Part shown: positions 17,415 to 63,958 of the stretch, piece after piece
Position numbering within the stretch: position 1 is the stretch's first letter
How the letters are laid out: the number at the start of each line of letters is the position of its first letter
IMG/VR virus record: IMGVR_UViG_3300028805_000055
Location: 89,680-153,679 of that record
Strand: one strand, 5' to 3'
Source of the DNA: a virus
Taxonomy: Duplodnaviria > Caudoviricetes
Length of the DNA: 64,000 nucleotides
The notes under the pieces: generated by a model
The model's input: the letters and a program-made list of their open reading frames with translations, nothing else
Told to the model about the DNA's origin: nothing
Database searches by the model: none
Program-made: the position numbers and the translations under genes

Positions 17415-17539
17415 AATATTTTTTAAATTAAAACGTCATCGTCTCCTTTACATTTTGTCCATGCCCAGGCAAACAGGCAGGAAAAGGCAAATACTATTAC
17501 CAACTGAATTAATTTCTCCTCCATAACACTATCTATTTG

Positions 17540-17622
17540 AGACACGGGTGAGATTCGAACTCACGTACCTTTCGGTCAAAGCTTTTGCAGAGCCAGGCGA
17601 TTGACCACTCCGCCACCGTGTC
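17540..17622 (-). tRNA. tRNA-Cys(GCA), long variable arm
   Basis: GACACGG/CCGTGTC acceptor, U73, loop CTGCAAA, V-arm ACC-GAAA-GGT, GTGAG-TTCGAAT-CTCAC. Confidence 0.85.
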
Positions 17623-46273: not shown

Positions 46274-46277
46274 ACTG

Positions 46278-46362
46278 TAGCGTAAGCTGGATTCGAACCA
46301 GCGGCAGTGTTTCCACTAACGACTTATGAGACCGCCCCAATTGGCCACTCTGGCATTACGCT
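46278..46362 (-). tRNA. tRNA(CAT), long variable arm
   Basis: AGCGTAA/TTACGCT, A73, CTCATAA, V-arm TAGTG-GAAA-CACTG. Confidence 0.85.
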
Positions 46363-52012: not shown

Positions 52013-52039
52013 AATTAATAATGTTTATATTTGCCGTTG

Positions 52040-52125
52040 TGAGCGTAGTGGGATTCGAACCCACGTAGCCTTATCGCCATAATAGTTTTAGAGACTATCC
52101 CAATCGACCTCTCTGGCATACGCTC
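52040..52125 (-). tRNA. amber suppressor tRNA(CTA), long variable region
   Basis: GAGCGTA/TACGCTC, A73, ATAGT-CTCTAAA-ACTAT, GTGGG-TTCGAAT-CCCAC. Confidence 0.88.
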
Positions 52126-52128
52126 TTG

Positions 52129-52824
52129 TTAATCTAGAACTTGATTCTTAGATAATGGTAGGCCATAATGCTTAAACCATTTTCTAATTGCCACATCTGA
52201 CACACCATACTTTTTACCAACCTTCCTAAAGCTTTTCAGTTCTTTAAATGACTGAATAAACTCATCTTTCGATGGATGAGAATTTCTCCAGATTTCTTCT
52301 TTTAAATTTTTGTTGTATTCTTTTTTTGGAGCTTTAACAACATTTTTTTTCCTATATTTTGTTTTCTCACAAGTTCTATTCTTGGAGGTAAAATTATCTG
52401 TTTGAGAATGACAATTTGGGCATAAAATTTGTAAGTTTTCTAACCTATTATCATTATTAATACCATTAATATGATGTACTTGTAAAGAAATTGGCTTTCC
52501 TTGCCACTCTGTTATGCCACATATCTCGCATTTATTTTCTTTTAAGCCTTCATTAAGTAATCTTTTTTTTAATTTTTGATTTGTATATGTACTATTTTCT
52601 ACTAGTACACTTTCTATTGGCATTTTTTTACGATACTCTCCAATTTTTTCACTTTGATATGTGAATTTTAATTCTATGTTGTATTTTTTAGATAAATCTC
52701 TAATTTGTTTGTAATCATAACTATTAGGATTTACAATACCAATTTTGTGGCATAAATCAAGCATGTTAACAGAAGAACCACTTGATAATTCTATAAGTTT
52801 GTCTAAAAGTAATTCATTTTTCAT
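52129..52824 (-). CDS. HNH endonuclease with C-terminal HTH
   Basis: CEIC, HHING..DN..ENL..LCPNCH; AT-rich. Confidence 0.92.
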   Translation of the reverse strand: MKNELLLDKLIELSSGSSVNMLDLCHKIGIVNPNSYDYKQIRDLSKKYNIELKFTYQSEKIGEYRKKMPIESVLVENSTYTNQKLKKRLLNEGLKENKCEICGITEWQGKPISLQVHHINGINNDNRLENLQILCPNCHSQTDNFTSKNRTCEKTKYRKKNVVKAPKKEYNKNLKEEIWRNSHPSKDEFIQSFKELKSFRKVGKKYGVSDVAIRKWFKHYGLPLSKNQVLD

Positions 52825-53331: not shown

Positions 53332-53645
53332 TATTCAGATTCTATTTGCTTAAGTTTCTTCTTCATGTTATCAAGTCTCCTAGTGCTAACTTTAATCATT
53401 GCCTCAGTGGTCACAATTTCCTGTCTAAGGCTCTCCATGATGGTCTGCTTGCACTCTTCCACGCTGTCATAAATAAACGAGCCACGAGTCAAATAAAAGC
53501 CATTATCGAGGTCTACACGACCAATAAGGAACTTGGGACGTGGATTGTCATCTATGGGCTTCTCTACAACAGTAGCCTCCACAACGTCATATCCAGACTT
53601 GTAGATAACTTTTTCACCAGGTTTAATATCTCCTACCTTTTTCAT
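53331..53645 (-). CDS. hypothetical protein, leaderless
   Basis: 104-aa ORF. Confidence 0.75.
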   Translation of the reverse strand: MKKVGDIKPGEKVIYKSGYDVVEATVVEKPIDDNPRPKFLIGRVDLDNGFYLTRGSFIYDSVEECKQTIMESLRQEIVTTEAMIKVSTRRLDNMKKKLKQIESE

Positions 53646-53647
53646 GC

Positions 53648-53680
53648 TGCAAAGATATACAAAATATTTGGAATATCAAA
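53648..53680 (-). promoter_or_regulatory. Bacteroidota-type promoter
   Basis: TTTG..TATCTTTGCA. Confidence 0.75.
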
Positions 53681-53701
53681 ATTTATTAACGTAAATTAAG
53701 A

Positions 53702-53732
53702 AAGCCGTACTGAATATTCTTCAATACGGCTT
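53702..53732 (-). terminator. terminator-like hairpin
   Basis: AAGCCGTATTGAA/TTCAGTACGGCTT. Confidence 0.7.
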
Positions 53733-53739
53733 TATATTA

Positions 53740-54039
53740 TTAGTCTTCGGTTACAATCTTCAAGTTCTTGAATAGCTCTTCGTGTCCGAAAACCGCTAAG
53801 GCTGTTGTCTTGTAATCAAGGTCTGGTTCTTTGAACTCAGTATACTCGACATCCATTGCCTCAAGCCTCATCTTCCACTTACTTATGTCAGCACTTAAGT
53901 AAATCAAATAATCGTTCTGCCACTCCTGGCTATCGGGATGCTCCAGCATCCACTGTGCCACTGCGTGTCCACCCTGGACACAGCCATATACAGGTCTGAG
54001 TGACTTGTCAATTAGTACATATAACTTTCTCTTCTCCAT
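53740..54039 (-). CDS. phage peptidyl-tRNA hydrolase (Pth2-like)
   Basis: KLYVL, QGGHA, F.EPD...TALA. Confidence 0.7.
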   Translation of the reverse strand: MEKRKLYVLIDKSLRPVYGCVQGGHAVAQWMLEHPDSQEWQNDYLIYLSADISKWKMRLEAMDVEYTEFKEPDLDYKTTALAVFGHEELFKNLKIVTED

Positions 54040-54350
54040 TATTCCTGTGGGTCTGCATACTTGTTATACTTACTGATGACTGAATTCTTGAACGAAGGTA
54101 TTGCTGTCCTTTCAGTCCAATCACCGCCAGACATACCGTGCCAACGTCCGCTGAAAAGCATCTTGTGGCAACGAGTATTAACCTCTTCCTCTAAGTATTT
54201 GTCACGCTCCTCGCCAGTTATCCTGTGCTTGAAGATGTAATAAGCTACATAGTCAGAATGGTCTTTCTCTGCGTCTGACTTAATGAATTCCTTAAACTTA
54301 AGATACTGCTCTTTTGTGGTATCTGTATTTGTAAAAATTTTCTTTTCCAT
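54039..54350 (-). CDS. hypothetical protein coupled to Pth2-like gene
   Basis: 103-aa ORF, TAATG overlap. Confidence 0.75.
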   Translation of the reverse strand: MEKKIFTNTDTTKEQYLKFKEFIKSDAEKDHSDYVAYYIFKHRITGEERDKYLEEEVNTRCHKMLFSGRWHGMSGGDWTERTAIPSFKNSVISKYNKYADPQE

Positions 54351-54421
54351 GTTGTATAAATTTTAATTTGATGTTATTAATTAAGTAAAGTTACCTCACT
54401 ACATTTCCCTTCAAATAAAAC

Positions 54422-54496
54422 TTATACGTCAGGACCACGAATCAGTTTCAGCTACCAGAACTGGTCAGAAACCTACCAAAAACTGTTTTTCTTCAT
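54422..54496 (-). CDS. putative leader peptide with two in-frame TAG codons
   Basis: MKKNSFW*VSDQFW*LKLIRGPDV-TAA; A-rich initiation region. Confidence 0.55.
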
Positions 54497-54529
54497 ACTA
54501 CTTTAAATTTTAAATTGTTATTAAAAAAC

Positions 54530-54593
54530 GGAAGCCATTCCTTTTCGTTGGCAGCGGCATTTCTACCGCTAAAGGGATTTGCTGTTAGCTTCC
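54530..54593 (-). ncRNA. ACAGCA-type element
   Basis: GGAAGC/GCTTCC, AACAGCAAA, GAAA hairpin. Confidence 0.6.
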
Positions 54594-54633
54594 TTGTTGT
54601 ATTTTAGTTTCTGAACTAATATTCTCAGAATAA

Positions 54634-54721
54634 GGGAACTACGATTTGTTGGAATCGAACCAACCTTTTCTGTTTTCAAGACAAAAATTTCACCCTGTAC
54701 AAAAACTTGCTGTAAGTTCCC
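54634..54721 (-). ncRNA. ACAGCA-type tRNA mimic (TGA loop)
   Basis: GGGAACT/AGTTCCC, TACAGCAAG, CTTGAAA loop, GTTGG-TTCGATT-CCAAC. Confidence 0.7.
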
Positions 54722-54724
54722 ATG

Positions 54725-54796
54725 TGGAGAATGTGGGATTCGAACCCCTCTGAATCCTTGCAAAGGACTAGTGCTAGCCGTTACACTACAAACCCC
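54725..54796 (-). tRNA. irregular tRNA-Ala(TGC)
   Basis: G3:U70, AGTCC-TTTGCAA-GGATT; mismatched acceptor and T stems. Confidence 0.65.
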
Positions 54797-54882
54797 AAAA
54801 TGCTAGTTTTTGTACAGAACTAACAAACTGCATACTATGAAAACAACTGTTTAGTGACCATCCATCCAACTGTTTCATTTGT

Positions 54883-54925
54883 AAGTCATGAAGGAGTCGA
54901 ACCTTCTTTTTACCACTTTGACCTT
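54883..54925 (-). ncRNA. tRNA minihelix-like element
   Basis: AGGTCA/TGACTT plus GAAGG-TTCGACT-CCTTC; no AC arm. Confidence 0.5.
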
Positions 54926-55252
54926 TTAGAGTATTTCAACAACCTTGCCGTAAATCTGGTTTCGGCTTATCCAGCCATTCATGTGACCATGATTATTACC
55001 GATTAGGTATTCCTTGTCATTCTTGATTGCATGTATTAAGTGCAAATAATGATAACCTTTTACCTTGCAGAGAACGATGTCTCTCTTCTTTAAGGTTGTC
55101 TTGTCTGTCACAGGCTCAACTATCACAGGTTGCCTGGATTTCAAAATAGGTGTCATAGAATTACCAATTCCAGTCACCTTACATGTCTCACCTGCTCTCA
55201 GATGATTGCATGTCTCTTGGTTTTCAAACCCACTATAAGTAAAATCTTTCAT
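54926..55252 (-). CDS. S24/S26 peptidase-like protein
   Basis: GNSMTP.L, DIVLCKV, YLH. Confidence 0.75.
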   Translation of the reverse strand: MKDFTYSGFENQETCNHLRAGETCKVTGIGNSMTPILKSRQPVIVEPVTDKTTLKKRDIVLCKVKGYHYLHLIHAIKNDKEYLIGNNHGHMNGWISRNQIYGKVVEIL

Positions 55253-55271
55253 AATTAAAATTGTTAAGCGG

Positions 55272-55382
55272 TGGAGCATAGGAGAATCGAACTCCAGAGG
55301 TCAAAACAAATACACCTCACGTATGGTCTTCTTATGCGCAAAACCGACCAGCAGGTCACCACCCAACGTGTTTTTATGCCCC
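55272..55382 (-). ncRNA. Ala-acceptor tRNA-like RNA
   Basis: GGGGCAT/ATGCTCC-A (G3:U70), T-arm; D/AC arms replaced. Confidence 0.65.
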
Positions 55383-55400
55383 ATAGATTTTACTTACTTG

Positions 55401-55521
55401 CAGGGACAGAAGGATTTGAACCTCCGTCGTTTATCCTTTTCCAAACATCAACACTTCCCGAAGTCCGTGTATATACGAATGGAATCGTAACAAATTATTC
55501 TAACCGCTAAACTATATCCCT
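55401..55521 (-). tRNA. tRNA with ~50-nt insertion in anticodon loop (Arg-ACG?)
   Basis: AGGGATA/TGTCCCT, normal D and T arms, long hairpin insert. Confidence 0.7.
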
Positions 55522-55535
55522 ATAAAAATACAAAA

Positions 55536-56399
55536 GACTGAGAACTTTGTCTTATTGTGGATGCCTTTTCACAACGGTTGGACGTTGCTGTTCACACGCC
55601 ACCTTACGATGGACGTAGACACCATGCACAATAGTTTTGCGAAAACTACTAAACACTTACTGGTTTAAACCTTTCGGTACAGAATCATAACATTCATTTC
55701 ACCACCAAGCTCTTGCGGATTCACTGGATGCCTCCAGCTAACTCAGATGACTACTTTTACTCGTTCATCGGATTCCTTGCGAGTCCCCGATGCCTCCATA
55801 TTGCAGGAGAGATAAGTGCATTTTATCTGCCCAGTGTCGCACACTTTCGCTTTTAATATTTATTTTAAAAGACGACAGGATTCGAACCTGTAACACTCGG
55901 ATTAACAATCTGATGCTCTACCGTTGAGCTACACTTCCACAACTAACGGAAGACGAGGTGCGACCCTTAGCATCCGTGCCTTTTGAGCACAGCCCACTAA
56001 ATCGCCTTCCTATGCCAAGACCACCACAGTCCTGTAGCACCGATACACACTCTCAGCCTTACGGTTCTTAACGCTTATAGACTACGCATTTCACGTTAAG
56101 ACGATTGTGTATCTGAATCCAACCCGCCAACTGGTGACTATTGAATCGGATTCAACAGAGTAATCTATTGTATCGCTACTCAACCAAAGCTGTTAACCTT
56201 GGTAGCACGTCGCACTGCATTTACCGACAGAACTCCGTGCCGTACCCTGTTCTTTTCAGTGAAATGCCCTGGTTTTCCAGAACATCTGAGTCGGGTTAGT
56301 TGCCAATATCCGTCTCATTTATCCCATCACTGGATTATCCTTATGGCTACGAAAGCTAGCCGTTCTTCCTCGTTTTCAGCCGAAGCCTACAACGTGAGA
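55536..56399 (-). ncRNA. large structured RNA, GOLLD-like, with embedded degenerate tRNA-Asn
   Basis: ~860 nt without a credible ORF, many GNRA hairpins, within tRNA cluster. Confidence 0.5.
55867..55938 (-). pseudogene. degenerate tRNA-Asn(GTT)
   Basis: D, AC (TTGTTAA) and T arms present; acceptor mostly G-U or mismatched. Confidence 0.65.
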
Positions 56400-56404
56400 A
56401 GTAG

Positions 56405-56519
56405 TTGGTAAGAGCAGATTTGCACTGCTGAAGCCGCCTAAGCGACACATCAAGCACGAACTTGATGCCCATTTGTCTACATCTAGGTGTTACCCTAGTT
56501 CTCCTCTGGTACTTACCAA
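56405..56519 (-). ncRNA. tRNA-shaped array RNA copy A
   Basis: shared covarying fold with copies B-E. Confidence 0.85.
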
Positions 56520-56724
56520 AAGGTGATTTTTTACTTTGTTCACCACAAAATATAGTAAGTAGTATTGTAAAGGCTGATTCATTTTTCAGAACCAATTTAA
56601 TGGTAAAGGACATCCGCTTTATTTCATACGGTTGTATGTTTGTCGCAACCTCACTTTCCTCGCCAACCTTTACTGCCGATTGCACCTGAGCATTTATACT
56701 ACTTTAACGCTTAACTGATACTCG

Positions 56725-56836
56725 TTGGAAGAGGTGGATTTGCACACACCGAAGCTCCGAAGAGCACACTAAGCACGAACTTAGTGCCCATTTGTCTACA
56801 TCAGCCTTGCGACTGTTCTCCTCTGGTATCTTCCAA
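56725..56836 (-). ncRNA. tRNA-shaped array RNA copy B
   Basis: shared covarying fold. Confidence 0.85.
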
Positions 56837-56837
56837 A

Positions 56838-56951
56838 TGGTTGGTAGAGGTGGATTTGCGCCACCGAAGCTCCTAAGAGCACATTACTCACGAAAGTAAT
56901 GCCGATTTGTCTACATCTGGATTACTCCAGTTCTCCTCTCGTATCTACCAA
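56838..56951 (-). ncRNA. tRNA-shaped array RNA copy C (encoded CCA)
   Basis: TGGTAGA/TCTACCA-A-CCA. Confidence 0.88.
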
Positions 56952-56955
56952 AGAG

Positions 56956-57066
56956 TTGAGAGAGTGGGATTTGCACACCACGAAGTCACCTAAGTGACAC
57001 AACATTTACCATGTTGCCCATTTGTCTACATCAGCCTTGCGACTGTTCTCCTCTGGTATCTCTCAA
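56956..57066 (-). ncRNA. tRNA-shaped array RNA copy D
   Basis: shared covarying fold. Confidence 0.85.
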
Positions 57067-57070
57067 AGAG

Positions 57071-57183
57071 TTGGAAGAGCTAGATTTGCACTAGCGAAGC
57101 CCCATAAGAGGCACATCAAGCACGAACTTGATGCCGATTTGTCTACATCAGCCTTGCGACTGTTCTCCTCTCGTATCTTCCAA
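57071..57183 (-). ncRNA. tRNA-shaped array RNA copy E
   Basis: shared covarying fold. Confidence 0.85.
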
Positions 57184-57184
57184 A

Positions 57185-57261
57185 TGGTAGCGGCACACAG
57201 GAGTCGCACCTGGTGTTTTTTGCTTATGAGACAAACGTGTAAACTGTTTCACTCTGCCGCT
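57185..57261 (-). tRNA. tRNA-Met(CAT), atypical T-loop, encoded CCA
   Basis: AGCGGCA/TGCCGCT-A-CCA, CTCATAA, TGCGACT. Confidence 0.8.
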
Positions 57262-57264
57262 ATA

Positions 57265-57753
57265 TTAACTGAATATTTTTTTCTTGTCTTCATCAGAGAG
57301 TTGACCACTATCAAACTCCCAATGGTGATTAGGACATAATGCAACTAGATTATTTATATCATTTATTTCTGAGACTAAACTATCATTACTGAATTCAGAT
57401 ACACCCTTTATGTGAGCAATCTCAATATGCTTATTATATCCGCATATTGCACATTCTCTAGGTTTATTAGACCTTTTGAAAATAGAATCAGCTAATTTTC
57501 TAATTGCTGTTCTAGCACTCTGCCAGTTTTTCCTACACCCAAACAATTCACCCTTGGTCATATTAAGTATCGGAGAGTTGTATTCAAGATTCAGTTCAAC
57601 ACCTAATGCTTTACATCTTTCCAATATTTTGTTATGAATTTTGAATGCCCTGCTAGAGTATCCCAAAGCTTCATTAACACCCTTCCAAGTTGTGTTGGCT
57701 TTTATTATTCTACAGAAATCTTCATCAGATGTTCTATATAATTTATCTACCAA
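57265..57753 (-). CDS. HNH endonuclease
   Basis: CAIC, AHIK, N.INNL..LCPNHH; TTG start only. Confidence 0.85.
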   Translation of the reverse strand: MVDKLYRTSDEDFCRIIKANTTWKGVNEALGYSSRAFKIHNKILERCKALGVELNLEYNSPILNMTKGELFGCRKNWQSARTAIRKLADSIFKRSNKPRECAICGYNKHIEIAHIKGVSEFSNDSLVSEINDINNLVALCPNHHWEFDSGQLSDEDKKKIFS

Positions 57754-57804
57754 TTGTTCATATTCATTACAATGAGTATCGCTACTCTTATTTCATTTTC
57801 ACGG

Positions 57805-57838
57805 TGCAAAGATATATATTTTTTTTCGTAATTCCAAA
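57805..57838 (-). promoter_or_regulatory. Bacteroidota-type promoter upstream of RNA array
   Basis: TTTG..TATCTTTGCACCGT. Confidence 0.85.
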
Positions 57839-57856
57839 TTTTTGAGGAACTTTTTT

Positions 57857-58120
57857 TTAATCAATTACACCTTTTATTTTTCTAAGCTCGTTGATTTCAG
57901 CATTAAACTCCTTCATTGTGTTGGTTGTTCCATCTTCATCAACATATTTGTCAGCTTCGATGTCAGCGACGAACTGAGTCAACTTGTTAACCAGGTCTGT
58001 CTTCAGTGCGCCATGATATTTCACACCGACAATTTTCTGAGCCTCTTTCTTCTCATACCCTGCGTCTACTAGAGACTTGTACAGGTTGTTTCTGAAATCA
58101 CTTTCTAATATCTTCTCCAT
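57857..58120 (-). CDS. hypothetical protein
   Basis: ORF from MEKILE. Confidence 0.75.
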   Translation of the reverse strand: MEKILESDFRNNLYKSLVDAGYEKKEAQKIVGVKYHGALKTDLVNKLTQFVADIEADKYVDEDGTTNTMKEFNAEINELRKIKGVID

Positions 58121-58142
58121 AACTATTATTTTTAATTGACGG

Positions 58143-58176
58143 TGCAAAGATATATATTTTTTTCCGTAATTCCAAA
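58143..58176 (-). promoter_or_regulatory. Bacteroidota-type promoter
   Basis: near-identical to 57805 copy. Confidence 0.85.
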
Positions 58177-58207
58177 TTTTTCAGAAGAAATTTTTCATCT
58201 TTTTTTG

Positions 58208-58581
58208 TGGAGCTGGTGGAAGTCGAATCCACGTCACAATTACCATCCCATAAGAGATTATACAAGCTTCTAGAGAATTGGTAAGTGGCTTGCGCCACCT
58301 TTCCTCTCTGCCACCTCATTTTTAAGAAACGAGGAAAACTGGGGGATTGACCAGAGGTCTATCCCAGCATGACCACCACTTGGTTTCTTGACACCAAGAA
58401 ACAAGTCACCAGGATGTTCTGTTCCTAAGAGCCTGGTCTCTCGGCTTCGCTTACGCTGCTACAGCGTATGCATAAGCAGGAGAATCTACGTTCTCGCCAT
58501 TTATGTTTTTTCGCTATTTCTAGTGTATGCCCACTGCTTGTCTCTTACCAGACGCATAACGTTCTATACCGTTTCAGCCCC
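58208..58581 (-). ncRNA. ssrA: tmRNA
   Basis: GGGGCTG/CAGCTCC-A, T-arm, ATAAAT resume context, tag GENVDSPAYAYAVAA*. Confidence 0.93.
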
Positions 58582-58642
58582 ATTTGTGTAAGATAAATAT
58601 ATCCTAATATGTAAAACTATCAAAGAACACTCTTTTTAAATG

Positions 58643-58717
58643 TGTTGGTGGAGGGATTTGGACCCCCGACCTCCTCGGTATCAGCGAGGTGCTACTAACC
58701 AGCTGAGCTACACCAAC
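58643..58717 (-). tRNA. tRNA-Ile(GAT)
   Basis: GTTGGTG/CACCAAC, CCTCG-CTGATAC-CGAGG. Confidence 0.88.
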
Positions 58718-58755
58718 ATGATGAATGCAGCCTTATGAGACTGCATTGCTTTTTT

Positions 58756-58932
58756 TTACCAGAAGAAGTGGAGCTTGTAGATTGCCCAAATTGGCAGTAC
58801 ACCAATCCAGAACAAACTGAACAACACCTTCTCCCATTCCTTGTTGTTCCACTTACTAATCCAGTACTTATATGCTGCAAAGGCAATGACCAGATAGAGA
58901 AGAACAAGCAATACAATGCCTACGGTACTCAT
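58756..58932 (-). CDS. small membrane protein (58 aa)
   Basis: MSTVGIVLLVLLYLVIAFAAY..., read manually. Confidence 0.7.
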   Translation of the reverse strand: MSTVGIVLLVLLYLVIAFAAYKYWISKWNNKEWEKVLFSLFWIGVLPIWAIYKLHFFW

Positions 58933-58973
58933 TTCTCAACGTTTTTTAGTCTAATTATTTTCATGGGTAGCAG

Positions 58974-59531
58974 TTATCGGAATGCACCAATGAACTGCTT
59001 TAGTATGTCCTTACGCTTAAGGACGCTTTCTGGAACGAAATCCTTAATCCATTCAGAGTTATCACTAATTCCTTCTCTCACCTTTGTTGCCGATATGTTA
59101 TCAGCGATAGTGCCTCTGGCATTCAACTTGAAGGAAACGAAGTTCCTTGTGATGAATGGTGGAAACCACAACATGATAATCTCGAACCCATCAGAATAGT
59201 AGATGGTAAACTCTGGAGACCTGGTGATACCAACAATCTTACTGTAGAGATAGAATCCCCAATCGTGAGAGTTGTCAGATTCATCCGTAAGGTCATCAAG
59301 TGGCTCGATGCGCACCCTATTAGCATCCTCTCCAAACGTCTGGTGTACAGCCTCAACTGCCATGTCCAGCCTTAGGTTAATCGGAATTGGATTCCTCTTA
59401 TTGAGTTTATCAGCAGAACCAACGAGAACAAGAACTGTGTCGTTCTCATTGAGTGCCTGGCGAATCAACTCCAGATGCCCGTTGTGAATGGGCTGCAAAC
59501 GTGCTATAATAACACCTACCTTTTCTGTCAT
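58974..59531 (-). CDS. NMN adenylyltransferase (NadM-like)
   Basis: ARLQPIHNGH, VGSA..RNP, ISATKVR. Confidence 0.85.
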   Translation of the reverse strand: MTEKVGVIIARLQPIHNGHLELIRQALNENDTVLVLVGSADKLNKRNPIPINLRLDMAVEAVHQTFGEDANRVRIEPLDDLTDESDNSHDWGFYLYSKIVGITRSPEFTIYYSDGFEIIMLWFPPFITRNFVSFKLNARGTIADNISATKVREGISDNSEWIKDFVPESVLKRKDILKQFIGAFR

Positions 59532-61543: not shown

Positions 61544-61561
61544 AACACTTATTTAATTAAG

Positions 61562-61647
61562 CTCGTCGGGTGCGATTCGAACACACGGTAGCGCAAAGCT
61601 ACACTAGTTTTGGAGACTAGCGGGTTAAACCACTCCCCCACCGACGA
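61562..61647 (-). tRNA. tRNA-Trp(CCA), long variable arm
   Basis: TCGTCGG/CCGACGA, G73, CTAGT-CTCCAAA-ACTAG, V-arm GTAGC/GCTAC. Confidence 0.85.
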
Positions 61648-62989: not shown

Positions 62990-63024
62990 TTTTTCTCAAT
63001 CTTTTTTTCATTTTTTAATATTTG

Positions 63025-63108
63025 AGCTAGAGACAGGATTCGAACCTGCGTGGGATTTTTACCTTTGGATTACGAAACCAACCTATTCAACCACTCTAGC
63101 ACTCTAGC
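63025..63108 (-). tRNA. tRNA-Thr(CGT), long variable region
   Basis: GCTAGAG/CTCTAGC, U73, TTCGTAA loop, 15-nt V region. Confidence 0.85.
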
Positions 63109-63649: not shown

Positions 63650-63656
63650 ATTCTTG

Positions 63657-63738
63657 AGCTGGGGACAGGATTCGAACCTGCGTTGTCTTTCGAACATGAT
63701 TACAAATCAAGTGCCTTCAACCTCTCAGCCACCCCAGC
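63657..63738 (-). tRNA. tRNA-Thr(TGT), long variable region
   Basis: GCTGGGG/CCCCAGC, U73, TTTGTAA loop, 13-nt V region. Confidence 0.85.
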
Positions 63739-63875: not shown

Positions 63876-63876
63876 G

Positions 63877-63958
63877 TGCATCGTGTAGGACTCGAACCCA
63901 CGTCGTGATTACTCACACAGATTAAGAGTCTGTTGCATAACCTCTCTGCCAACGATGC
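63877..63958 (-). tRNA. tRNA-Lys(CTT), long variable arm
   Basis: GCATCGT/ACGATGC, A73, ACAGA-CTCTTAA-TCTGT, V-arm GTGA-GTAA-TCAC. Confidence 0.87.

What the first reader, a model, noticed from the sequence alone, without database searches (positions are those of the whole stretch)
54422..54496. Leader ORF with two TGG-TAG pairs and an RGP end upstream of the peptidyl-tRNA hydrolase operon
Seen: after an A/T-rich initiation region with A at -3, the frame reads ATG AAG AAA AAC AGT TTT TGG TAG GTT TCT GAC CAG TTC TGG TAG CTG AAA CTG ATT CGT GGT CCT GAC GTA TAA (MKKNSFW*VSDQFW*LKLIRGPDV). It lies ~70 nt upstream of a gene pair ending in a Pth2-like gene, and an amber suppressor tRNA is 2.3 kb away. 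Established: RAGP/RAPP-type C-terminal motifs stall ribosomes. Inference: ribosomes reach the RGP motif only when UAG is read through, making this a sensor of amber suppression or RF1 activity that controls ribosome-rescue genes.
Basis: partly seen in the sequence, partly recalled or inferred. Interest (0 to 1): 0.84.

Follow-up and report, generated by a model that had tools for sequence, protein, structure and literature searches.

The report
Amber-gated leader peptide in jumbo phages
A 24-codon mini-gene with two in-frame UAG stop codons is kept in dozens of related giant rumen phages, next to the phages' own UAG-reading tRNA, and it looks like a natural sensor that lets two neighbouring genes be translated only when that tRNA is overriding the stop signal.

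Summary
It lies on the minus strand: ATG 54496, TGG-TAG at 54478-54473 and 54457-54452, IRGP at 54442-54431, TAA 54424-54422.

In this one genome it could be chance; its conservation shows it is not. Relatives from rumen metagenomes give 51 distinct copies, all upstream of homologues of the same 103-aa gene.

Both TAGs are invariant. The frame beyond them shows amino-acid-level selection:
- Pro is invariant but uses all four codons.
- Arg is kept as CGT, AGA or AGG.
- Indels are in frame.

In nearly every relative with enough flank, a tRNA-CUA lies 0.3-2 kb downstream.

In all 54 distinct copies folded, a long hairpin runs from the Gly-Pro codons and pairs with the start region of the 103-aa gene. 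Its arms covary between clades.

The peptide end, (I/V)RG(x)P, resembles the SecM arrest cores IRAGP and IRGSP.

Best reading: only ribosomes that read through both UAGs reach and open the hairpin, probably pausing there. This unmasks the start of gene A, which is coupled to a Pth2-fold gene B.

In about half the relatives the leader is fused in frame to gene A.

Stalling and regulation are inferred, not shown. The family otherwise uses the standard code.

The parts
54422..54496 (-). Leader ORF: MKKNSFW-UAG-VSDQFW-UAG-LKLIRGPDV-UAA, 24 sense or recoded codons plus the stop.
   Evidence: Read directly. Conserved as 51 distinct versions in relatives. Codon-level selection in this frame.
54473..54478 (-). 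First TGG-TAG pair (codons 7-8): amber checkpoint 1.
   Evidence: TAG and the preceding TGG are invariant in 45 of 45 canonical distinct leaders. In the variants L084 and L087 the TAG is kept although TGG is lost.
54452..54457 (-). Second TGG-TAG pair (codons 14-15): amber checkpoint 2. It sits 17-19 nt before the hairpin begins.
   Evidence: Invariant in 45 of 45. The spacing to the R-G-P codons is conserved, with a 2-codon linker in 41 of 51.
54431..54442 (-). ATT CGT GGT CCT = I-R-G-P, the putative SecM-like arrest core.
   Evidence: Codon use across distinct leaders: I/V in 49 of 51; R in 49 of 51 (CGT 41, AGA 6, AGG 2); G/S in 51 of 51; P in 51 of 51 (CCT 35, CCA 8, CCG 7, CCC 1). Arrest motifs HAPIRGSP...GIRAGP and WWWPRIRGPP are quoted in PMC12526060.
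54346..54434 (-). Long hairpin. The 5' arm starts at the last base of the Gly codon and the Pro codon and runs over the leader's stop. The 3' arm covers the 20 nt before the gene-A AUG, and the AUG-GA itself.
   Evidence: MFE -23.0 kcal/mol, z -3.75, 0 of 200 shuffles fold as well. The same architecture is present in all 54 distinct relatives. Arm-swap covariation test.
54039..54350 (-). Gene A: 103-aa helical protein of unknown function.
   Evidence: ORF. No Pfam or PHROG hit. AlphaFold2 pLDDT 88, four helices, no fold match. Homologues at 37-98% identity in rumen phage contigs.
53740..54039 (-). Gene B: 99-aa Pth2-fold protein. Its start overlaps the gene-A stop (ATAATG).
   Evidence: phrog_3668 'hydrolase' at 6e-7. 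Best PDB sequence hit is a peptidyl-tRNA hydrolase at E 0.25. Fold match to Pth2 and Bit1.
52039..52125 (-). Amber suppressor tRNA (anticodon CUA, discriminator A73, variable-arm hairpin).
   Evidence: ARAGORN and Rfam tRNA at 56 bits. Homologous tRNA-CUA genes lie downstream of gene B in relatives.
54530..54593 (-). Conserved hairpin GGAAGCUAACAGCAA...GCUUCC followed by a U-run, about 30 nt upstream of the leader ATG. It probably marks the 5' boundary or processing site of the leader mRNA.
Evidence: Seen in the fold. Both stem halves are conserved with a variable middle in relatives.

Best explanation
This is a translated cis-regulatory leader that reports whether UAG is being read as sense.

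Proposed mechanism:
1. Ribosomes start at the leader ATG.
2. If release factor wins at either UAG, they leave the mRNA at least 17 nt before a long hairpin. That hairpin pairs the leader's Gly-Pro codons and the following roughly 20 nt with the start region of gene A, so gene A and the translationally coupled Pth2-fold gene B stay untranslated.
3. If the phage's tRNA-CUA reads both UAGs, the ribosome runs onto the 5' arm of the hairpin.
4. The nascent peptide ...W-x-L-x-x-(I/V)-R-G-(x)-P, which resembles SecM-type arrest motifs, probably pauses the ribosome there with Gly-tRNA in the P site and Pro in the A site. This holds the hairpin open so that gene A's AUG can be used.
5. Two UAGs in series make the response steep and suppress leak from near-cognate readthrough.

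In about half of the relatives the same ribosome can continue in frame into gene A, giving an N-terminally extended form.

Shown: conservation, amino-acid-level selection beyond the UAGs, linkage to tRNA-CUA, and a covarying hairpin that masks the start.

Inferred: readthrough by that particular tRNA, pausing at RGP, and the ON/OFF effect on genes A and B.
For: **1. Conservation**
- 51 distinct leaders with the consensus M-[KR]-[KR]-x-S-F-W-TAG-[IVG]-x-[DNSE]-[QE]-[FH]-W-TAG-[LI]-x(1-3)-[IV]-R-[GS]-(T/F)?-P.
- All lie upstream of gene-A homologues of 61-98% identity.

**2. The frame is translated past the TAGs**
- Pro is kept in 51 of 51 with four codons.
- Arg is kept in 49 of 51 across two codon families.
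- Val at P+2 uses GTA 13, GTT 12, GTG 11.
- Gln uses CAA 22, CAG 17.
- Indels are multiples of three (MKSFW versus MKKNSFW; a 3-codon deletion between the TAGs in L074 and L122).
- pN/pS is 0.54 and 0.47 in this frame, against 0.86-7.3 in the other two frames.

**3. TAG itself is selected**
- It is never replaced by a sense codon in 45 of 45 canonical leaders, although neighbouring codons vary.
- It is kept in L087 and L084, where the upstream residues are replaced.

**4. Linkage to the suppressor tRNA**
- A tRNA-CUA lies 0.3-2 kb downstream of gene B in nearly all loci with enough flank. In the compact forms it directly abuts gene B.

**5. Hairpin**
- In all 54 distinct sequences, the CC of the Pro codon and positions +6 to +17 pair with the region around gene A's AUG.
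- Many columns change on both sides.
- Each 5' arm pairs best with its own 3' arm: -17.8 versus -10.0 kcal/mol for swapped arms. The own arm is best in 11 of 15 clusters, and 0 of 10,000 permutations match this.
- z-scores range from -1.9 to -4.5.

**6. Resemblance to arrest motifs**
- IRGP, VRGTP and IRGFP resemble the published arrest cores MsSecM HAPIRGSP, EcSecM GIRAGP and engineered WWWPRIRGPP (PMC12526060).

**7. No other role for the suppressor is visible**
- The contig and two complete relatives are otherwise standard code, with no internal TAG in long genes. These UAGs are the only conserved in-frame targets seen for the suppressor.

**8. Synthetic precedent**
- Engineered amber-in-leader switches, and the gain obtained from multiplexed UAGs, show that the logic works (PMC6412442).
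Against: - There is no experimental evidence of readthrough, pausing or regulation.
- The CC of the Pro codon is also held by base pairing with the GG of AUGG. Part of the apparent peptide conservation could therefore be at the RNA level.
- In about half of the relatives the frame continues into gene A. A strong arrest would be awkward there.
- A divergent clade (46% identity) has a single W-TAG leader. Its 97%-complete 410-kb genome has no detectable tRNA-CUA among 32 tRNAs.
- A still more distant clade has the tRNA-CUA but no leader.
- The window's contig is only about 52% complete, so other UAG targets could lie in the missing part.
- The amino acid inserted at UAG is unknown.
Confidence: 0.6

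Rival explanations
1. The element is simply the 5' end of gene A. The functional form is the fused ORF, in which two amber codons gate synthesis of a long isoform. The window's separate 'leader' is a recently broken remnant with no regulatory role of its own.
For: About half of the distinct leaders are fused in frame. Linker lengths run from -138 to -162 nt, always a multiple of three, with no TAA or TGA in AT-rich sequence. The linker peptides of the RGTP clade look conserved.
Against: - Unfused forms occur in several separate clades. They still keep the ATG, both TAGs and IRGP intact, with synonymous variation.
- Gene A's own ATG is kept in every member, fused or not.
- The hairpin that masks that ATG is conserved in both forms. 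This makes sense only if internal initiation is regulated.
Confidence: 0.2
2. RNA-only element: translation ends at the first UAG, giving a 7-aa uORF. Everything downstream is conserved as RNA structure or as a protein-binding site that controls gene-A initiation or mRNA stability, independently of suppression.
For: The hairpin is strongly supported. Part of the 'RGP' conservation overlaps paired bases. The single-TAG clade lacks a detectable suppressor.
Against: - The Arg, Ile/Val and Gly codons lie outside the helix, yet they are kept at the amino-acid level through CGT/AGA/AGG and ATT/GTT/GTC/ATA.
- The segment between the two TAGs is unpaired but shows Q (CAA/CAG) and F (TTT/TTC) synonymous variation and only in-frame indels.
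- pN/pS is lowest in this frame.
- This reading gives no reason for a second invariant TAG.
Confidence: 0.1
3. DNA-level element: the two TTTGGTAG copies, 21 bp apart, are promoter -33 boxes or operator sites. The same octamer forms the -33 part of about 18 promoter-like repeats in this genome.
For: Recurrent aTTTGGTAGt-N16-TAATTTTGCA repeats elsewhere in the contig. The spacing of two helical turns fits a binding-site pair.
Against: - There is no -7 box (TAnnTTTG) at the spacing used by the genuine repeats. It would have to lie 7 nt closer.
- TTT is replaced by TTC in 10 of 45 and by CAT in 5 of 45 at the second site, which breaks TTTG but is synonymous or conservative for Phe.
- L087 and L084 keep TAG in the context AACGTAG with no TTTGG.
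- This model does not predict the codon-type conservation.
Confidence: 0.03
4. Chance ORF in an AT-rich spacer.
For: Within one 154-kb contig, two in-frame TGGTAG hexamers within 30 nt are not very improbable, because TGGTAG is common here.
Against: 51 distinct conserved versions at the same position in relatives down to 61% protein identity. The pattern is found nowhere else in IMG/VR outside coding sequence.
Confidence: 0.01

Closest known systems
SecM-type arrest peptides regulating secA (E. coli ...GIRAGP; Mannheimia HAPIRGSP; engineered WWWPRIRGPP)
   Same: A short upstream ORF ends in (I)R-(G/A)-(x)-P. A ribosome sitting on these codons would melt a hairpin that hides the start region of the next gene. 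A Trp lies 5 residues upstream of the Ile, as in the engineered peptide. Motifs are quoted in PMC12526060. The secM-secA hairpin mechanism is from my own knowledge.
   Different: - There is no signal peptide, no secA, and no pulling-force release.
- The arrest motif can only be reached through two UAG codons.
- The R-to-P spacing varies (RGP, RGTP, RSP).
- Arrest has not been demonstrated.
- The host is probably a Bacteroidota- or Firmicutes-type rumen bacterium and the setting is a phage.
Antibiotic- and metabolite-sensing leader peptides (ermC, cat, tnaC, speFL)
   Same: Leader translation state decides whether a downstream start, or a terminator or rut site, is exposed. The peptide sequence of the leader is conserved. 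From my own knowledge.
   Different: The input here is not a small molecule bound in the exit tunnel. It is the decoding of a stop codon, which depends on the balance between suppressor tRNA and release factor.
prfB (RF2) autoregulation by an in-frame UGA
   Same: An early in-frame stop codon acts as a sensor of termination efficiency for the expression of a translation-related gene. From my own knowledge.
   Different: prfB uses a +1 frameshift with an internal Shine-Dalgarno sequence and senses RF2. Here there is no frameshift signal. The UAGs are read in frame by a dedicated tRNA, and in the window the output goes through a separate start codon.
Stop-codon recoding in gut and rumen phages (code 15; Borges et al., bioRxiv 10.1101/2021.08.26.457843)
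   Same: A phage-encoded tRNA-CUA, in-frame TAG codons, the idea that recoding times gene expression, and suppressor tRNAs seen in standard-code relatives.
   Different: - In those phages many late genes carry TAG, which aligns with Gln codons in relatives.
- Here the genomes are standard code.
- The TAGs are confined to one tiny element beside the tRNA gene and are never exchanged for sense codons. They act as signals rather than as coding positions.
Synthetic amber-in-leader and multiplexed-UAG switches (Liu, Qi, Yanofsky and Arkin 2011, and others, reviewed in PMC6412442; suppressor-tRNA feed-forward loop, PMC7969014)
   Same: UAG placed in a regulatory leader makes downstream expression depend on a suppressor tRNA. 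Several UAGs in series reduce leak and raise gain.
   Different: Those systems are engineered in E. coli with orthogonal tRNA/synthetase pairs. This would be a natural counterpart, found in uncultured phages.
bldA tRNA-Leu(UUA) / TTA-codon control in Streptomyces; ArfA control by tmRNA
   Same: Expression of particular genes is gated by the availability of one tRNA (bldA). Alternatively, a rescue factor is made only when a translation-quality system is saturated (ArfA). From my own knowledge.
   Different: Those systems use a different codon class (a rare sense codon, or non-stop mRNA) and have no arrest-type leader or masking hairpin.

Membership tests
SecM-type ribosome arrest peptide | C-terminal arrest core (I)R(A/G)(G/S)P, with the final Pro decoded in the A site. 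| tested here: inconclusive
   IRGP (window), VRGTP, IRGFP and IRSP(G/N/D) in relatives, compared with the published IRAGP, IRGSP and IRGPP. The cores are similar, but the R-to-P spacing is one residue shorter in the window's form.
SecM-type ribosome arrest peptide | Demonstrated elongation arrest (peptidyl-tRNA accumulation, toeprint). | not testable with these tools
   Needs in vitro translation or profiling.
SecM-type ribosome arrest peptide | N-terminal signal peptide, a location upstream of secA, and release by Sec-dependent pulling. | tested here: not met
   The leader is 24 codons long with no hydrophobic signal segment. The downstream genes are a 103-aa helical protein and a Pth2-fold protein.
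Ribosome-position-dependent leader (erm/cat/secM class) | A short translated ORF upstream of the regulated gene. | tested here: met
   Conserved ATG, frame, in-frame indels and synonymous variation.
Ribosome-position-dependent leader (erm/cat/secM class) | A conserved RNA structure masks the downstream initiation region, and its 5' arm overlaps the leader's distal codons. | tested here: met
   The hairpin is present in 54 of 54 distinct sequences. The AUG or +4/+5 positions are paired in 44 of 54, and at least 6 nt of -15..+5 are paired in 54 of 54. Covariation was shown by arm swapping. z-scores.
Ribosome-position-dependent leader (erm/cat/secM class) | Downstream expression changes with the translation state of the leader. 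| not testable with these tools
   Needs reporter assays.
Code-15 (TAG-recoded) phage genome | Many genes, typically late ones, have internal TAG, and coding density is restored when TAG is read as sense. | tested here: not met
   - Coding density is already high with the standard code.
- TAG ends about 15% of ORFs in the contig, with short extensions beyond it.
- The same holds in 160 kb sampled from two complete relatives and in the whole 410-kb G007.
- Caveat: the window's contig is about 52% complete.
Code-15 (TAG-recoded) phage genome | A phage-encoded tRNA with anticodon CUA. | tested here: met
prfB-like in-frame-stop autoregulation | A +1 frameshift site (CUU UGA C type) with an upstream internal Shine-Dalgarno sequence. 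| tested here: not met
   No such site is present. In fused relatives the ORF continues in the zero frame through TAG.
Pth2 (PF01981) peptidyl-tRNA hydrolase, for gene B | Sequence match above Pfam's threshold. | tested here: not met
   No hit for the window protein. The best among 9 homologues is E 0.063. The PDB profile search gives its top hit to a peptidyl-tRNA hydrolase, at only E 0.25.
Pth2 (PF01981) peptidyl-tRNA hydrolase, for gene B | The Pth2 alpha/beta fold. | tested here: met
   Foldseek hits: 2zv3 at 4e-4; also 1wn2, 3erj and 1xty (TM 0.70) and 1q7s Bit1 (TM 0.71). All have probability 1.0.
Pth2 (PF01981) peptidyl-tRNA hydrolase, for gene B | Catalytic residues and hydrolase activity. 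| not tested
   The alignment places the invariant E71-P-D-L against the K-D-A-G-L motif.
tRNA-Pyl (ARAGORN's label for the CUA tRNA) | The special tRNA-Pyl architecture and accompanying pyl genes. | not tested
   ARAGORN's label follows the anticodon only. The tRNA has an ordinary GG D-loop and a TTCGAAT T-loop. No search for pyl genes was made.

The most novel reading that the evidence does not exclude
The four-part module (amber leader, gene A, Pth2-fold gene B, tRNA-CUA) may be a self-contained homeostat that lets a standard-code jumbo phage run a controlled level of amber suppression in its host.

- The leader measures suppression with a two-UAG, arrest-peptide read-out.
- It then switches on proteins that either deal with the damage (peptidyl-tRNA and non-stop complexes, alongside the phage's own tmRNA) or act back on the suppressor itself.

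This would be the first natural arrest peptide whose trigger is stop-codon readthrough. It would also be a candidate starting point for full stop-codon reassignment in phages.
Probability: 0.3. Interest if true: 0.9.

Novelty: new variant of a known kind. Interest (0 to 1): 0.8.

Why it matters
Phage-encoded suppressor tRNAs are common, including in phages that use the standard code. Why they are there, and how a phage knows that its code switch has taken effect, are open questions (Borges et al. preprint).

This element offers a concrete, testable answer for one large family of rumen jumbo phages: a dedicated cis-sensor of UAG readthrough, wired to two genes beside the tRNA.

- It would add a new input (stop-codon decoding) to the known repertoire of regulatory leader peptides.
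- It would be a natural counterpart of synthetic amber-in-leader switches.
- It gives a compact part, about 150 nt, that could be tested directly in reporters.
- It points to gene A (unknown fold) and the Pth2-fold gene B as proteins whose function is tied to suppression.

Tried and rejected
- **Phage database:** blastn of the 2-kb region against 50,697 GenBank phage records gave no match.
- **Rfam:** nothing was found at 54350-54520.
- **RNAalifold on MAFFT alignments:** 54 sequences and a 19-sequence subset gave no consensus structure. The arms are out of register between clades. I replaced this with per-sequence folds, an arm-swap test and an anchored pair table.
- **Structure in the leader's 5' part alone:** none (z +0.96).
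- **Gene A:** no Pfam or PHROG family, no Foldseek hit, VIA-align Z of 5 or less, and no ESM Atlas lead.
- **Other amber-gated genes in the contig:** the best candidate (genome 44517-46025, TAGs at codons 16 and 42) has an upstream part that reads as non-coding and a normal start further down. Other in-frame TAGs sit at the extreme ends of ORFs.
- **Promoter/operator reading of TTTGGTAG:** rejected (see rivals).
- **Suppressor in the single-TAG clade:** a BLAST search and a full ARAGORN scan of the 410-kb G007 found none. The one BLAST hit near gene A lies in coding sequence.
- **RNA libraries:** sheep-rumen metatranscriptome contigs contain the stretch, some at 100% identity. Contigs cannot show strand, ends or expression level, so I do not count this as evidence of expression.
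- **Identity of the suppressor:** A73 and the class-II-like D-loop argue against Gln, Trp and Ser by the usual identity rules (my own knowledge). The inserted amino acid stays unresolved.
- **GTDB genomes:** the only gene-A hit is the same 410-kb phage scaffold, filed as a 'Firmicutes' bin. It gives no information on the host.
Full report
**1. What is there**

The finding lies on the minus strand. Read from 54496 downwards, the sequence is ATG AAG AAA AAC AGT TTT TGG TAG GTT TCT GAC CAG TTC TGG TAG CTG AAA CTG ATT CGT GGT CCT GAC GTA TAA, ending at 54422.

- Seventy-one nt further on, a 103-aa ORF starts (gene A, 54350..54039).
- Gene A's TAA overlaps the ATG of a 99-aa ORF (gene B, 54039..53740).
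- A tRNA with anticodon CUA lies at 52039-52125 on the same strand.
- The surroundings (54350-59000) are packed with tRNAs, tRNA-like elements, a tmRNA and a GOLLD-like RNA.
- The window is the last 64 kb of a 153,679-bp linear virus contig, estimated at about 52% complete.
- Complete relatives measure 295-413 kb, so this is a fragment of a jumbo phage from the rumen.

**2. Is it more than chance?**

Inside one contig it is not clearly so, because TGGTAG is a frequent hexamer here. The relatives settle the question.

- Searching IMG/VR and JGI metagenomes with gene A returned about 20 viral and 78 metagenomic loci.
- In every locus of 61-98% identity with enough upstream sequence, a start codon is followed by the same arrangement. 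There are 51 distinct versions.
- The consensus is M-[KR]-[KR]-x-S-F-W-TAG-[IVG]-x-[DNSE]-[QE]-[FH]-W-TAG-[LI]-x(1-3)-[IV]-R-[GS]-(T/F)?-P.
- A pattern scan of all IMG/VR for the double TGGTAG found it in non-coding context only in this family. The other roughly 20 hits are chance matches inside genes.

**3. The frame is translated beyond both UAGs**

Codon tables over the distinct leaders show the signature of protein-level selection downstream of the stops.

| Position | Residue kept | Codons used |
|---|---|---|
| Pro | 51 of 51 | CCT 35, CCA 8, CCG 7, CCC 1 |
| Arg | 49 of 51 | CGT 41, AGA 6, AGG 2 |
| Ile/Val before Arg | 49 of 51 | ATT, GTT, GTC, ATA |
| Val two residues after Pro | 36 of 47 with a codon there | GTA 13, GTT 12, GTG 11 |
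| Gln between the UAGs | 39 of 45 | CAA 22, CAG 17 |
| Phe before the second Trp | 40 of 45 | TTT 30, TTC 10 |

- Length changes are in frame: MKSFW versus MKKNSFW, three codons missing between the UAGs in L074 and L122, and one codon more or less before Arg.
- Pooled pN/pS for the part after the first UAG is 0.54 and 0.47 in this frame. In the two other frames it is 0.86-7.3.
- The UAGs themselves are never replaced by a sense codon in 45 of 45 canonical leaders.
- In two variants whose N-terminal part was replaced (L087: MKIVSYNGNAT-TAG-VCDKFW-TAG-LRQIRGPD; L084...AT-TAG-LKKIRGPDV), TAG is kept although the preceding TGG is gone.
- So TAG is selected as TAG. It is a signal, not a codon for a particular residue.

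**4. Linkage to the suppressor**

- In essentially every relative with enough downstream sequence, a homologous tRNA-CUA follows gene B at 0.3-2 kb. In the compact forms it abuts gene B directly.
- In the window, two small ORFs and an HNH endonuclease gene lie between them.
- The tRNA has an ordinary D-loop and T-loop, discriminator A73, and a variable arm that ranges from 4 to 22 nt among relatives.
- ARAGORN's 'Pyl' label follows the anticodon only. I could not determine which amino acid the tRNA carries.

**5. The genomes otherwise use the standard code**

- Coding density is high with table 11 along the contig.
- TAG terminates about 15% of ORFs, and the in-frame extensions behind it are short.
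- The same holds in 160 kb sampled from two complete relatives and in the whole of a 410-kb one. In-frame TAGs appear only at the extreme ends of ORFs.
- The one promising second case in the contig turned out to be a non-coding upstream stretch.
- Within what could be examined, the leader's UAGs are therefore the only conserved in-frame targets of the suppressor. The missing half of this genome remains a caveat.

**6. A covarying hairpin ties the leader's end to gene A's start**

Folding each of the 54 distinct sequences from the Arg codon to gene A's fourth codon gives the same architecture every time.

- The 5' arm begins at the last base of the Gly codon and the Pro codon, and runs about 25 nt onward.
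- The 3' arm is the region just upstream of, and including, gene A's AUG.
- In the window, U-C-C of GGU-CCU pairs with G-G-A of AUG-GAA, and UG pairs with CA around the A of the AUG. Then follows a 17-bp helix (54427-54411 with the 3' arm). The MFE is -23.0 kcal/mol, z is -3.75, and 0 of 200 shuffles fold as well.
- In the VRGTP clade, ACU-CCU-A pairs instead with a UAGGA box 9-12 nt before the AUG.
- In the divergent single-UAG clade, GGUUUUCCGUAAU (G-F-P-stop) pairs with AUUAUGGAAAAC.

The arm sequences differ between clades but stay complementary.

- Anchored at the Pro codon, positions 0-1 are paired in 53-54 of 54 sequences, and positions 6-17 in 47-54 of 54.
- At positions 8-11, 14, 15 and 17, 17-28 sequences have changed on both sides.
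- In an arm-swap test over 15 clusters, a 5' arm binds its own 3' arm at -17.8 kcal/mol on average, against -10.0 for foreign arms. The own arm is best in 11 of 15 clusters, and none of 10,000 permutations reaches the observed mean.
- In 54 of 54 sequences, at least 6 nt of the -15..+5 window of gene A are sequestered. In 44 of 54 the AUG or the next two bases are themselves paired.
- MAFFT plus RNAalifold failed on these sequences because the arms are out of register.
- The pair table therefore rests on per-sequence minimum-energy folds and leans toward pairing. The swap test is the control for that bias.

**7. Geometry**

These ribosome footprint dimensions are from my own knowledge.

- A ribosome waiting at the second UAG has its A site 17-19 nt before the first paired base, which leaves the helix just outside the mRNA channel. 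This spacing is conserved, with a two-codon linker in 41 of 51 leaders.
- A ribosome with Gly in the P site and Pro in the A site covers roughly the first 12-14 nt of the 5' arm. That includes the bases that hold gene A's AUG.
- Termination at either UAG therefore leaves the mask on. Readthrough of both takes it off.

**8. The peptide end resembles SecM-type arrest motifs**

- Published minimal arrest sequences are E. coli SecM FSTPVWISQAQGIRAGP, Mannheimia SecM HAPIRGSP, and the engineered WWWPRIRGPP (PMC12526060).
- The phage leaders end in ...W-x-L-K-L-IRGP-D, ...W-x-L-N-R-VRGTP, ...IRGFP-stop or ...IRSP(G/N/D).
- The Arg, the Ile/Val and the Gly/Ser lie outside the helix, so RNA pairing does not explain their conservation.
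- This makes a nascent-chain pause at Gly-Pro a reasonable inference. It is not shown, and the Pro codon's CC is also held by base pairing.

**9. Fused forms**

- In about half of the distinct leaders the frame runs on through the hairpin into gene A. This covers the whole VRGTP clade, many IRGP members and one IRSP member.
- The distance from the leader ATG to gene A's ATG is then always a multiple of three (138-162 nt), with no TAA or TGA despite the AT-rich composition.
- Gene A's own ATG is nevertheless kept in all of them.
- The unfused state, as in the window, occurs in several clades with the leader intact.
- My reading is that the element works in cis in both states. In fused phages, readthrough ribosomes additionally make an N-extended gene-A protein.
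- The alternative, that the fused protein is the point and unfused leaders are decaying, fits less well with their intact state. I cannot exclude it, and give it 0.2.

**10. The regulated genes**

- Gene A is predicted with confidence (pLDDT 88) as a four-helix protein. It has no family or fold match.
- Gene B matches phrog_3668 'hydrolase'. Its model matches archaeal Pth2 and human Bit1. Sequence-level support for Pth2 is below threshold.
- Two distant gene-B homologues in other phages themselves carry an in-frame TAG.
- A 37%-identity clade of gene A has no leader, but has a tRNA-CUA 0.8 kb upstream.
- The A/B pair therefore seems tied to amber suppressors more deeply than the leader is.
- Two functions are both plausible, and both are untested. 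One is dealing with the by-products of suppression (peptidyl-tRNA, ribosomes run to mRNA ends), alongside the phage's tmRNA. The other is acting on the suppressor itself.

**11. Evidence that cuts the other way**

- The 46%-identity clade has only one W-TAG (MKQKW-TAG-IDIRGFP-stop). Its 97%-complete genome has 32 tRNAs, none of them CUA. In that clade the UAG may simply end a 5-codon uORF, or it may be read by something I could not detect.
- TTTGGTAG is also the -33 part of about 18 promoter-like repeats in this contig. However, the leader copies lack a -7 box at the right distance, they tolerate TTC and CAT in place of TTT, and the TAG survives loss of the octamer. I reject the DNA-element reading.

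**12. Comparison with what is known**

- The architecture (short translated leader, conserved peptide end, hairpin masking the next start) is that of secM-secA and the erm/cat leaders.
- It is not a SecM family member: there is no signal peptide and no secA.
- Sensing termination efficiency with an early in-frame stop recalls prfB, but there is no frameshift site.
- Gating by one tRNA recalls bldA/TTA.
- The closest functional counterparts are synthetic. Amber codons placed in regulatory leaders make downstream genes depend on a suppressor tRNA, and multiplexed UAGs lower leak (PMC6412442; PMC7969014).
- Work on phage recoding describes suppressor tRNAs in standard-code relatives and proposes recoding as a timer for late genes.
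- In the papers I could search, I found no description of a dedicated amber-readthrough leader next to the suppressor gene.

**13. Verdict**

- I classify it as a new variant of a known kind of regulator.

| Claim | Confidence |
|---|---|
| It is a conserved element translated through UAG | about 0.85 |
| It controls gene-A initiation by unmasking | about 0.65 |
| RGP acts as an arrest motif | about 0.45 |

Another (e1-5779962) listed the hairpin just upstream of the leader.

Noticed in passing
G000 genome 52-76 kb (outside the window), minus strand; one copy in the window at about 30804 (-): About 18 copies of a promoter-like repeat, aTTTGGTAGt-N16-T(C/A)TAATTTTGCA. It fits the Bacteroidota -33 TTTG / -7 TAnnTTTG type and hints at the host phylum and at a class of phage promoters.
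   Followed up: partly
window 17539-17622, 46277-46362, 52039-52125, 61561-61647, 63024-63108, 63656-63738, 63876-63958; also genome 64326-64418: Eight of the 16 phage tRNAs (Cys, Met, sup-CUA, Trp, two Thr, Lys, Leu-UAA; 83-93 nt) share a class-II-like D-loop and carry a hairpin in the variable region, although most belong to class-I amino acids. Their discriminator bases look cognate.
   Followed up: no
L032:3202-3204 and L034 (2977-3285): Distant homologues (about 40% identity) of the Pth2-fold gene B in other phage contigs carry one in-frame TAG inside the conserved core (..EFT-TAG-FKEPDL..). This suggests the gene is amber-gated in another way elsewhere.
   Followed up: partly
L146 and L148 (tRNA-CUA at about 1612-1708; gene A at 2501): The 37%-identity clade of gene A has no amber leader, but has a tRNA-CUA about 0.8 kb upstream. 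The gene A/B pair is linked to amber suppressors beyond the leader-bearing clade.
   Followed up: partly
G007 (L196-L216), 410,106 bp: This near-complete jumbo phage with the single-TAG leader has 32 tRNAs and a tmRNA, but no tRNA-CUA. ARAGORN also calls one odd tRNA with a two-base 'anticodon' at about 6565. The same scaffold is filed in GTDB as 'uncultured Firmicutes bacterium RUG343'.
   Followed up: partly
window about 54395-54410 (-), apical part of the hairpin: A purine-rich motif, GGGAAA..(U)AGUGA(A/G)G, is conserved across clades in the unpaired top of the leader/gene-A hairpin. Its role is unknown; it could be a standby site or a protein-binding site.
   Followed up: no
window 52129-52824 (-): An HNH endonuclease gene with an HTH domain, plus two small ORFs, sits between gene B and the suppressor tRNA. 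In compact relatives the tRNA follows gene B directly, so this is probably a mobile insertion.
   Followed up: no
window 55535-56010 (-): A GOLLD-like RNA hit (72 bits, E 2e-17, below the gathering score of 150) encloses the tRNA-Asn call at 55867-55938. Further weak tRNA-like hits lie at 54640-54708, 55401-55521 and 57189-57261.
   Followed up: no
window 53600-54900: Contigs from sheep-rumen metatranscriptome libraries of three studies cover the leader, hairpin and genes A and B, some with no differences. This shows presence only; it shows neither strand nor ends.
   Followed up: partly
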